Shown piece by piece: positions 54,001 to 57,000 of a stretch of DNA of 64,000 bases; the stretch's first letter is position 1, and every line of letters starts with the position of its first letter. The stretch is from the NCBI RefSeq assembly GCF_011045215.1, contig NZ_CP049201.1; one strand, 5' to 3'. This DNA comes from Escherichia coli (GTDB taxonomy: Bacteria > Pseudomonadota > Gammaproteobacteria > Enterobacterales > Enterobacteriaceae). Position numbers: made by a program.

Positions 54001-57000
54001 TATCCGCCAGAGATTTGTACACGCTGTATCCGTCACTCACCAGCGTGCCACCACGCCAGCCCTGCAGCCAGGCCTCAGGATATCTGAGGGCCCGTCCGGT
54101 CTGCGAGTCAAAACAGACGACCGGCGGGCCGCTTCTTTCTCCGCTGACGTAAGCCCACAGCCAGCCGGAGCAGGATTTACCGCCTTTCCGGGTATCAAGG
54201 AGCCTCAGGGACGTTTCATCTGCATGAATAACATCCCGTGTCAGAAGCTCGTGGCGTAACAATTTTGCCAGCGGGGCCAGTGCAGCGCCAGCAACACCGA
54301 CCATATCCGCCATTGTACTGACGGGGAGCTCCACACCCATTCGGGAGAAAATGTGCTGCTGGCGATACAGGGGCAGATGGTCGGTATATTTGCTGATGAC
54401 AACCTGTGCGATGACCGATGGCTCAACAGCACTTTTCGGAAGGATATGTGCCGGCATTTTTCCGCTGAACACTTTCTCACAGCAGGGACAGCTGTACTGC
54501 GGGCGGATATAGCGGTGGACCACAACCTGTGCGGGGATATATTCCAGCTTCTCGCTGACTTCATCGCGAATGAAGTGCAGGGGGGCATCACAGTCAGGAC
54601 AACGTTCCTCAGCTGGCGGGATAACCTTTTCAGCACGGGGAAGATGTGAAGGCAAGGGCTTACGAACAGGACGTGTTGTTTTTTCTTCGTCCCCGGTCTG
54701 AGGAAGCAGTTTGTCCAGACGCGCCGAGATTTCTGCGATATCCGCGTCAACATCCTCTTCGAACAGGGAACGCTGCATCCCGGCCAGCGATTCGCATTTT
54801 TTACCAAAACGCTGCTGGCGTGCGAGCTTCATCTGCTCTTCCAGGATGCGGATACGGTTCTGAAGTTCTGCAATATTCCGGTCTTTTTCCAGCACCATAT
54901 TTGCAAGGTTCTGACTCTCAGCCATGGCTTTTGCACCATGGCAATTGCCAGAGCGCGAAGCTGTTCAGGGTCACTGGTGGTACTGAGAAGCGAGATATCC
55001 ATGCGGTGGATTATATGACATCACGCATGGATATTCATTATATTTCATTGAGTTATTGCGTTGCTCTGAGCATCTTCGGGTTCTTCCTGGTATACCCATT
55101 TTGCCAGGTCATGCCCTTTCACCTGTTGCCAGTCAACCCCACAGACCAGCCAGTGAAACTCATCCTGTGTGAGATGCCATGTGGCATCACCTTTCCGGGG
55201 CCAGCGGAAGCTTCCCCGGTGCAGTCGTCGGGTACACAGCCATACGCCATGTTTGTCCCACCGGAGAACTTTTATGCGGGAGCGGACTTTATTGGTGAAG
55301 ACAAAAGCAGCACCGTCATGCCATGCAGCGTTAAGTTCGTTCTGGACGTACTGTGTCAGTGTGTCGATACCCCGGCGCATATCGACGGGTTTTACGACCA
55401 GGAATACGTTATCAGGCGTCAGCATGGCGAAGAGCCCGGAAAACATCGGTTAACTGAGAAGGCTGGCAGCACATCCGGATACCTCCGGGAAGGAAAAGTG
55501 TGACAGGCTCATCCGACAATGGTCTGCCATCAGCCATACCGGGAGCGCCAGACACTGAAACTGGAATAATTTCAGGTGCTCTGGCTCGTTTTTCGGCTTT
55601 TGCAACATCCTGCGGCCACTGGCGCAGGGATTTAAACGGAATGTCGTAAAGTTCACAGTACTGTTCACGGGTAAGGCCGCTTGCGCGCCATGCGGCAACG
55701 TGATGTTTTTTCTGATCAAGCGTCCATCGTATCCTGGGCATTGTTTACTCTCCACAGAAGGAAGTTATACGAATACCGGAATGTTAATGAACAGAATATT
55801 TCTGTGAAGATAAGATCCCCGAAACGATACAATCATTAAATATGAACTGGAGGTACAAATGAATAAATACTTAATTATTTTATTTTTTATTGCTGACACT
55901 TCTAACGCTTCAGAAGCTATATCAAATAAGTACACAATAGATTCAGACAGTCAGTTAATATTATCGAATGGAAATATTAAGGCTGTTGGCAATGTACACG
56001 CTGTAAGCGGGGACATGACTATTGATGCAGATGAAGCTATTTATCATCGTGAAACCCCTGATAACACCTATATAACTGCCACAGGGGATCCAATAAAATA
56101 CAATGGGATAACAGAAGATGGCAAGCCGTTTTCAGGAAACTCGAAAAAGCTTAAATATACTCCCAAAACAGGAGAGGTGATCCTGACAGACGAAGCTTTT
56201 GTCCAACAGAGTGGAAATTCTCTGTCGGCCGAAGTAATAACATATAACACCATCACAAGAAAAATGACAGCCTCAGCAACTCCCGGTAAAAGAGTAAGGA
56301 GTGTGATTTATCCTGACAATATATCCCAGAATGAAAAATAATTACGCTTGGTTAATAATATGCTGAATCTGCCAAAACCTTTTATCCTGACAACTTACTG
56401 CCAAGATAAAAAGTCAGACGTCATACAGCAGAGTTATTAACAGGCAGCATACATCACCCCGACTGGAGAGTAAGCTCGCACAGTTCAAGTCATTGACGAA
56501 AAAATGTTTCACTACTGACGATACAGTGGCAGGTATTCGCAGTATTTTCCCGTTACAGAGCCGGCGTTGCCGCGCTCTGTCAGGCAGAACGGGACTGGCG
56601 CTTACTTGTTATCTGAACATTCATGTGTACTATCTTTATGTTACTGATGATGCAACAACATAAATTCGTTTTTCTTCTCACAGCATTGTTAAGCACCTTC
56701 TGCCTCAATTTGTTTCCTGTGGCAGAAACAGGAAATAGCATTACTGTATTGTTACAGATTGCTGCTGATGTCAATTTATTGTATCGCCGCTGGCAGATGA
56801 CAGGCCTGAGCATACTGCGGATAATTTTATTACTGCGCAGTGGTTATACAACTCAGCCCTCACAGTACTATTATATTACAGTGCTTATCTGTTATTCTCT
56901 ATTCTTCAGTCAGTTATTGTCTTCCGGCAGGTTGTTTTCTCCTCTGGCATTAATACTGAAACTGTATGCGCAGCCCTGTGCGGATTTTTACTCATCGGAT

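What the first reader, a model, noticed from the sequence alone, without database searches (positions are those of the whole stretch)
54900..55020. Possible frameshift at the N-terminus of the IS66 TnpC
A TnpC-like start (MDISLLSTTSDPEQLRAL) at 55002 is in a different frame from the 500-aa transposase body that begins at 54925. This suggests a frameshifted, possibly inactive, transposase.
Basis: seen in the sequence. Interest (0 to 1): 0.2.

Follow-up and report, generated by a model that had tools for sequence, protein, structure and literature searches.

The report
Frameshifted IS66 transposase gene (one-base deletion)
One copy of a common E. coli jumping gene (IS66 family) has lost a single A from a run of five near the start of its transposase gene, which cuts off the first 26 codons; this is ordinary decay of a mobile element.

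Summary
An IS66-family insertion sequence lies on the minus strand at about 53074-55831, with tnpA, tnpB and tnpC. Intact copies that are 98-99% identical encode a 527-aa TnpC starting MDISLLSTT(R/S)DPEQLRALAIAMVQKAMAESQ. The window reads CAAAAGCC where they read CAAAAAGCC, a 1-nt deletion in an A5 run (plus-strand T run at 54929-54932). The native start at 55002 now opens a 57-aa out-of-frame stub. The rest of the gene is a separate 500-aa ORF starting at the internal Met27 (54925).

The short allele was absent everywhere I looked: 628 matching records in 5,426 complete E. coli genomes, 48 plasmid records and 4 metagenome contigs. Relatives down to about 40% identity keep residues 1-86 in one frame, and the A run is not conserved among them, so this is not programmed frameshifting. 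The copy at the same chromosomal site is broken in different ways in three other strains, which fits neutral decay. The rest of the window shows no frame-breaking homopolymer errors, so a sequencing artefact is unlikely but not excluded. The 500-aa ORF keeps all four Pfam domains, so inactivity is inferred, not shown. Interest is low.

Side note: a conserved hairpin buries the native tnpC start codon.

The parts
53074..55831 (-). IS66-family insertion sequence, about 2.76 kb, carrying tnpA, tnpB and tnpC
   Evidence: 98-99% identical over its length to annotated IS66-family elements in many E. coli chromosomes and plasmids. The ends were set by imperfect inverted repeats and by where homology to other copies stops.
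55810..55832 (.). Terminal inverted repeat on the tnpA side
   Evidence: Inverted-repeat pair I1, 23 nt, 83% complementary to 53073-53095.
53073..53095 (.). Terminal inverted repeat on the tnpC side
   Evidence: Inverted-repeat pair I1. The same terminus is seen in the orthologous copy of strain 52F4.
55412..55741 (-). tnpA, 109 aa, intact
   Evidence: ORF. NCBIfam NF047593 IS66 TnpA, 45 bits. It differs at 1-2 residues from the annotated TnpA proteins WP_001137791/2.
55045..55446 (-). tnpB, intact. The ORF is 133 aa from the first ATG; homologues are annotated from the ATG at 55425, giving 126 aa
   Evidence: Pfam PF05717 TnpB_IS66, E=4e-35. NCBIfam NF033819. Identical to the C311 TnpB over 126 aa.
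54992..55036 (-). Hairpin in the tnpB-tnpC spacer whose 3' arm contains the native tnpC AUG. The loop holds a TATAAT-like hexamer 7 nt before the AUG
   Evidence: The RNA fold of 54880-55050 has z = -4.4. Across 7 distinct relatives 95.6% of cells are paired and 2 pairs carry compensatory changes. The hexamer-to-AUG spacing is conserved.
54829..55002 (-). Stub ORF of 57 aa: native tnpC start plus codons 1-25, then out-of-frame sequence to a stop
   Evidence: Its N-terminus matches intact TnpC proteins.
54929..54932 (-). Frameshift site: A4 run on the minus strand (TTTT on plus) where intact copies have A5
   Evidence: Alignment A1, the indel list and the plus-strand read-out.
53423..54925 (-). 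tnpC body: 500-aa ORF from internal Met27 to the native stop, holding the LZ_Tnp_IS66, zf-IS66, DDE_Tnp_IS66 and DDE_Tnp_IS66_C domains
   Evidence: and the Pfam scan. The exact product is GenBank QIF16135.1.
54679..54684 (-). In-frame 3-nt deletion in an ACA/AAC repeat (approximate position). It removes one Thr of EEKTTTRPV, leaving EEKTTRPV
   Evidence: Indel list against C311 and C5 plasmid B. All full-length cluster members read have TTT.

Best explanation
This is a decaying copy of an IS66-family insertion sequence. A genuine 1-nt deletion in a five-A run 76-80 nt into tnpC shifts the frame. Ribosomes that start at the native AUG (55002) make a 57-aa nonsense-tailed peptide. The catalytic body (500 aa, from Met27 at 54925) has no start context of its own. 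The element therefore most likely cannot make full-length TnpC and could transpose only if another copy supplies TnpC in trans. Shown here: the deletion, its absence from everything searched, the continuity of the frame in all relatives, intact tnpA and tnpB, and independent damage to the same copy in other strains. Inferred: that the deletion is biological rather than a base-calling error, and that loss of the 26 N-terminal residues or of proper initiation abolishes activity.
For: 1) Window CAAAAGCC versus CAAAAAGCC in C311 (intact 527-aa tnpC, WP_105463503.1), C5 plasmid B and 52F4.
2) The A4 allele has no exact match in 628 matching records from 5,426 complete E. coli genomes; the listed best hits span 67 nt for the 66-nt query. 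The A5 version matches 15 records exactly and 612 at 95-99%. A4 is also absent from 48 plasmid records and from 4 of 4 metagenome contigs. The exact 500-aa product occurs on a single 5.41-Mb E. coli contig.
3) Residues 1-86 are read in one frame in relatives of 80% down to about 40% identity, including ISEc49, Enterobacter, Pantoea and Serratia. Differences in codons 1-26 include synonymous third-position changes.
4) The copy at the same site, between an Ail/Lom gene and an lptA-like gene, is disrupted differently elsewhere: an IS110 insertion in 52F4, deletion and inversion in the C5 chromosome, and an IS3 insertion with rearrangement in ETEC1716.
5) Assembly quality: against a 99.2%-identical genome, 24 kb of core sequence has only 5 single-base indels, all intergenic. 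None of 60 homopolymer runs of 5 or more in 20.9 kb of core CDS breaks a frame, nor do 39 such runs in the intact 9.3-kb cdiA ORF.
6) This copy also carries an in-frame 3-nt deletion that none of the compared copies has, which is not a typical base-calling error.
Against: A homopolymer length error cannot be excluded from a consensus sequence alone. No second assembly carrying the A4 allele was found to confirm it independently. The 500-aa ORF keeps every recognised TnpC domain, so a truncated protein, if translated, might retain activity. A -1 slip of tRNA-Lys on A_AAG would recreate the exact wild-type protein at a very low level.
Confidence: 0.82

Rival explanations
1. Sequencing or assembly artefact: the genome really has five As and tnpC is intact, and the consensus dropped one base in a homopolymer.
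For: The lesion is a 1-nt length change in a homopolymer, the commonest error type of several platforms. The allele is seen in one record only. Three of the five intergenic indels against TB354 are also homopolymer length differences.
Against: No frame-breaking error occurs in 99 homopolymer runs of 5 or more across 30 kb of other coding sequence in the window. By the rule of three this bounds the per-run error rate at roughly 3%. The three intergenic homopolymer differences make the window longer, not shorter. The same copy has a separate 3-nt in-frame deletion. The orthologous copies in other strains are all damaged, so a real lesion is expected.
Confidence: 0.11
2. The deletion is real but the element still makes working transposase. 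This could happen by internal initiation at Met27 (54925), giving a 500-aa protein with all domains, or by occasional -1 ribosomal slippage on CAA_AAG, which restores the exact wild-type sequence.
For: All four Pfam domains lie downstream of residue 27. A_AAG is the most shift-prone tetramer in E. coli (PMC4066793). A -1 slip there would read ...VQK-AMAESQ..., identical to the intact protein.
Against: No Shine-Dalgarno-like sequence precedes 54925 (direct reading). Ribosomes on the stub ORF run across that AUG and stop 96 nt downstream. Without a stimulator, tetramers shift at about 0.15% against a 0.11% background (PMC4066793). The 83 nt from the A run onwards (54850-54932) fold no better than shuffles, z = 0.10. 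The 26 lost residues are conserved down to about 40% identity, which argues that they matter.
Confidence: 0.06
3. Programmed frameshifting, or a genuine two-ORF design: the short upstream ORF and the 500-aa ORF are the normal arrangement of this IS.
For: IS1 and IS3 family elements do use A-rich slippery sites to fuse two ORFs (PMC4066793).
Against: Every relative examined has one continuous frame. The A run itself is not conserved: CAAGAAG in ISEc49, CAAAACG in Enterobacter, CAGAAAG in Serratia. The split arrangement was found in no other record.
Confidence: 0.01

Closest known systems
Intact copies of the same IS66-family element in E. coli, e.g. strain C311 chromosome NZ_CP062204.1, tnpC WP_105463503.1, 527 aa
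   Same: 98.6% DNA identity across the element. Same tnpA-tnpB-tnpC order and the same TnpC apart from a few substitutions.
   Different: The window copy lacks one A of the A5 run and one ACA/AAC repeat unit. Its terminal 12 nt or so differ at both ends (TGTATCGTTTCGG versus GTAATGTTCCGG / GTAATATTCCGG). It has no flanking 8-bp duplication.
Other frameshifted tnpC pseudogenes of this IS, e.g. RG28_RS30090 on E. coli C5 plasmid B, flagged 'frameshifted' by PGAP
   Same: Same gene, same kind of lesion (a single-base indel in a short purine run), same consequence.
   Different: A different site and direction: +1 A in GGAAGAGCAG, about 95 nt further downstream. The window's gene was deposited as an ordinary 500-aa CDS (QIF16135.1), not as a pseudogene.
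IS66 family in general (three-ORF elements such as IS679 and ISEc49). Family features other than those tested here are from my own knowledge
   Same: tnpA, tnpB (PF05717) and a DDE TnpC with zinc-finger and leucine-zipper regions, plus terminal inverted repeats.
   Different: ISEc49 shares only 63% identity over the N-terminal 86 residues. The window's tnpC is split.
Programmed -1 frameshifting of IS1 and IS3 family transposases
   Same: An A-rich shift-prone motif (A_AAG) lies at the boundary of two overlapping ORFs.
   Different: The motif is not conserved, there is no stimulatory structure, and relatives are in one frame. This is an accident, not a control device.

Membership tests
IS66 family insertion sequence | TnpC transposase with the DDE_Tnp_IS66 catalytic domain | tested here: met
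   PF03050, E=5e-91, in the 500-aa ORF, together with zf-IS66, LZ_Tnp_IS66 and DDE_Tnp_IS66_C. The intact homologue scores 439 bits on NF033517 against a cut-off of 180.
IS66 family insertion sequence | Accessory genes tnpA and tnpB upstream of tnpC on the same strand | tested here: met
   tnpB matches PF05717 and NF033819; tnpA matches NF047593. The order tnpA-tnpB-tnpC is seen, and both genes are full length compared with annotated homologues.
IS66 family insertion sequence | Terminal inverted repeats | tested here: met
   23-nt arms, 83% complementary, at 53073-53095 and 55810-55832. They coincide with the ends of homology to other copies.
IS66 family insertion sequence | 8-bp target-site duplication flanking the element (family feature from my own knowledge) | tested here: not met
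   The flanks are GCAATTTT and AATCATTA. This bears on the history of this copy, for example later recombination, not on family membership. Strain 52F4 has the same flanks.
Intact, autonomous IS66 element | One uninterrupted tnpC reading frame from the conserved MDIS start to the stop | tested here: not met
   A 1-nt deletion splits it into a 57-aa ORF and a 500-aa ORF.
Programmed -1 ribosomal frameshift site (IS1/IS3 type) | Slippery motif and two-frame layout conserved among relatives | tested here: not met
   Relatives are in one frame and the A run varies. The split allele is absent from everything searched.
Programmed -1 ribosomal frameshift site (IS1/IS3 type) | Stimulatory structure a few nucleotides downstream of the motif | tested here: not met
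   The 83 nt from the A run onwards (54850-54932) fold at -13.9 kcal/mol, z = 0.10 against shuffles.

The most novel reading that the evidence does not exclude
The one-base deletion may not be a dead end. It could have created a self-throttled IS66 in which rare -1 slippage of tRNA-Lys on CAA_AAG rebuilds the exact wild-type TnpC. That would be an accidental, newly born IS3-style frameshift control, acting on top of a conserved start-codon hairpin that already limits tnpC translation.
Probability: 0.03. Interest if true: 0.35.

Novelty: already known. Interest (0 to 1): 0.07.

Why it matters
It matters little beyond annotation. The gene deposited as an ordinary 500-aa 'IS66 family transposase' (QIF16135.1) is better labelled a frameshifted pseudogene. 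This IS copy should be treated as non-autonomous when judging the stability of the surrounding genomic island, which carries a contact-dependent inhibition (CDI) toxin locus. The locus is also a small, clean example of one ancestral IS insertion being knocked out in four different ways in four strains. The side observation may deserve a separate look: a conserved hairpin hides the tnpC start codon, and a -10-like hexamer sits at a fixed distance from it.

Tried and rejected
1) I looked for the A4 allele elsewhere: complete E. coli genomes, plasmids, JGI/ENA metagenome contigs and GTDB species representatives. It was not found. The GTDB scan found neither allele, so it is uninformative.
2) The look-up of encoding contigs for the 500-aa product returned nothing, so I could not recover the source record or its sequencing platform.
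3) Programmed frameshifting was rejected: the motif is not conserved, there is no downstream structure and relatives are in one frame.
4) The idea that Met27 is the true start was rejected on homologue N-termini.
5) A PDB sequence search for a TnpC structure, to judge the role of residues 1-26, gave no hits.
6) The literature search for IS66/IS679 tnpC biology found nothing useful in the open library.
7) The consensus promoter scan did not call the TATAAT in the hairpin loop because its -35 is weak.
8) A second hairpin, GCCAUGG-loop-CCAUGGC, brackets the A run, but its 3' arm is not conserved in ISEc49, Enterobacter or Pantoea, so I give it no role.
9) No tRNA gene is present in the window, so the attachment site of the island was not identified.
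10) I did not run the costly protein-database search for the stub peptide. The exact-sequence look-up had already shown that the stub and the 500-aa product are not shared with other assemblies.

Full report
**What is there.** The minus strand of window 53074-55831 carries an IS66-family insertion sequence.
- tnpA is at 55412-55741 (109 aa).
- tnpB is at 55045-55446 (homologues are annotated from the ATG at 55425).
- A 57-aa ORF lies at 54829-55002.
- A 500-aa ORF lies at 53423-54925.

Pfam and NCBIfam identify TnpB (PF05717, NF033819) and TnpA (NF047593). The 500-aa ORF contains the four TnpC domains LZ_Tnp_IS66, zf-IS66, DDE_Tnp_IS66 and DDE_Tnp_IS66_C. Imperfect 23-nt inverted repeats at 53073-53095 and 55810-55832 mark the ends.

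**Checking the observation.** The ATG at 55002 opens MDISLLSTTSDPEQLRALAIAMVQK, followed by PWLRVRT... and a stop. The 500-aa body starts at the ATG at 54925 in another frame, one base back (-1) from the frame of the stub.

**What the lesion is.**
- The element is 98-99% identical to several hundred annotated IS66-family copies in E. coli chromosomes and plasmids.
- The copy in strain C311 has an uninterrupted 527-aa tnpC (WP_105463503.1) that begins MDISLLSTTRDPEQLRALAIAMVQKAMAESQNL....
- In the DNA alignment the window reads GTGC-AAAAGCC where C311, C5 plasmid B and 52F4 read GTGCAAAAAGCC (indel list).
- So one A of a five-A run is missing. The run is TTTT at 54929-54932 on the plus strand. 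The first 26 codons are thereby detached from the body.
- The only other indel against the intact copy is an in-frame 3-nt loss in an ACA/AAC repeat, which turns EEKTTTRPV into EEKTTRPV.
- TnpA and TnpB are full length and nearly identical to annotated proteins.

**Is the single frame the normal state?** Yes.
- All 527-aa and 513-aa members read from the protein's 1,840-member cluster begin with MDISLL, including one from Salmonella Newport.
- A tblastn search with residues 1-86 of the intact protein aligns in one piece from residue 1 in relatives of 80%, 69%, 63% (ISEc49), 62% (Enterobacter), 59% (Pantoea), 55% (Serratia) and about 40% identity.
- Reading those loci directly shows the same MDIS start, and synonymous third-position changes within codons 1-26.
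- The A run is not conserved: CAAGAAG, CAAAACG and CAGAAAG occur in relatives.
- This rules out a programmed frameshift and a two-ORF design.

**How common is the allele?**
- A 66-nt probe with A4, placed between the neighbouring SNPs, has no exact match in 628 matching records from 5,426 complete E. coli genomes. The listed best hits span 67 nt.
- The A5 probe matches 15 records exactly and 612 at 95-99%.
- No A4 allele occurs in 48 plasmid records.
- Four of four metagenome contigs carry A5.
- GTDB species representatives hold neither allele.
- The exact 500-aa product exists once, as GenBank QIF16135.1 on a 5.41-Mb E. coli contig, where it was annotated as an ordinary CDS.

**Real mutation or artefact?** This cannot be settled from a consensus sequence, but the context favours a real mutation.
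- Against a 99.2%-identical genome (TB354), the first 24 kb of the window has five single-base indels, all intergenic. Every core gene from artI to clpA is in frame.
- None of 60 homopolymer runs of 5 or more in 20.9 kb of core CDS breaks a frame. Nor do 39 such runs in the intact 3,106-aa cdiA ORF. That bounds the per-run error rate at roughly 3%.
- The same chromosomal insertion, between an Ail/Lom gene and an lptA-like gene downstream of a CDI locus, is damaged in three other strains:
  - tnpC is split by an IS110-family element in 52F4.
  - It is largely deleted and partly inverted in the C5 chromosome.
  - It is broken up by an IS3 insertion and rearranged in ETEC1716.
- An old copy that is decaying in every lineage makes a real lesion here unsurprising.

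**Consequence (inferred).**
- Ribosomes that start at 55002 make a 57-aa peptide.
- The body's AUG at 54925 has no Shine-Dalgarno-like sequence (direct reading) and lies inside the stub ORF.
- A -1 slip of tRNA-Lys on CAA_AAG would restore exactly the wild-type protein. However, Sharma et al. 2014 (PMC4066793) measured tetramer motifs without a stimulator at about 0.15% against a 0.11% background. The 83 nt from the A run onwards (54850-54932) fold no better than shuffled sequence, z = 0.10.
- The 26 lost residues lie upstream of the first Pfam domain but are conserved over a wide range of relatives.
- No solved structure exists to judge their role.
- I conclude that the copy is most likely non-autonomous, while its tnpA, tnpB and ends are intact.

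**Comparison with what is known.** This is a member of the IS66 family by gene content, domains and inverted repeats. It fails only the test for an 8-bp target duplication, which reflects the history of this copy. Frameshifted tnpC pseudogenes of the same IS are already flagged by PGAP, for example on C5 plasmid B, which carries a different +1 insertion about 95 nt downstream. Nothing here is new in kind.

**Seen in passing.** The tnpB-tnpC spacer folds into a 13-bp hairpin (54992-55036) whose 3' arm contains the native tnpC AUG.
- The region 54880-55050 folds with z = -4.4.
- In an alignment of seven distinct relatives, 95.6% of cells pair, two pairs carry compensatory changes, and slid controls give 13-55% paired.
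- The loop carries a TATAAT-like hexamer always 7 nt before the AUG.
- This suggests that read-through transcripts hide the start codon, while a short or leaderless transcript from an internal promoter exposes it. This is untested, and the sample is small: 38 of 500 shuffles reach the observed score.

**Verdict.** This is an ordinary pseudogenising frameshift in a common IS, with a small residual chance of a homopolymer sequencing error. Interest is low.

Noticed in passing
window 54992-55036 (minus strand); relatives L001, L011-L016: A conserved 13-bp hairpin in the tnpB-tnpC spacer buries the native tnpC AUG. Across 7 distinct relatives 95.6% of cells are paired and 2 pairs carry compensatory changes. 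A -10-like hexamer (TATAAT, TATACT or TAGTAT) in the loop sits exactly 7 nt before the AUG in all of them. This may be fold-back control combined with a leaderless tnpC transcript.
   Followed up: partly
window about 54679-54684: An in-frame 3-nt deletion in an ACA/AAC repeat removes one Thr (EEKTTTRPV becomes EEKTTRPV). It is absent from the compared copies and from the full-length cluster members read.
   Followed up: partly
window 53067-53095 and 55810-55838: The terminal 12 nt or so of this copy and of the 52F4 orthologue read TGTATCGTTTCGG at both ends. Otherwise 98%-identical copies read GTAATGTTCCGG / GTAATATTCCGG, so the two ends have changed in concert. No 8-bp target duplication flanks the element: GCAATTTT versus AATCATTA.
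   Followed up: partly
L003 (52F4), L005 (C5 chromosome), L006 (ETEC1716): The same chromosomal IS66 insertion is disrupted independently in each strain: an IS110-family insertion in tnpC, an internal deletion with inversion, and an IS3 insertion with rearrangement.
   Followed up: yes
window 53423-54925: The source genome's GenBank annotation (QIF16135.1) lists the 500-aa ORF as a normal 'IS66 family transposase', not as a frameshifted pseudogene.
   Followed up: no
L001 1123-2707 (E. coli C5 plasmid B): This plasmid copy of the same IS has its own tnpC frameshift, a +1 A in GGAAGAGCAG, about 95 nt downstream of the window's lesion.
   Followed up: yes
window 23951-52854: A genomic island follows clpA. 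It holds a tyrosine integrase gene (23951-25153) and a contact-dependent inhibition locus with an intact 3,106-aa cdiA-like ORF (39319-48639), then orphan toxin/immunity-like modules and an Ail/Lom gene (52297-52854). The cdiA homologues are fragmented in C5 and ETEC1716. No tRNA gene is present anywhere in the window.
   Followed up: partly
window 13760, 23268, 23346, 23713, 23736: Five single-base intergenic indels separate the window from strain TB354. Three are homopolymer length differences in which the window is one base longer: A6 vs A5, C7 vs C6, A8 vs A7.
   Followed up: no
window 54920-54950 (minus strand): Two copies of GCCATGG bracket the A run and can pair as a 7-bp hairpin with the run in the loop. 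The second arm is not conserved in ISEc49, Enterobacter or Pantoea.
   Followed up: partly
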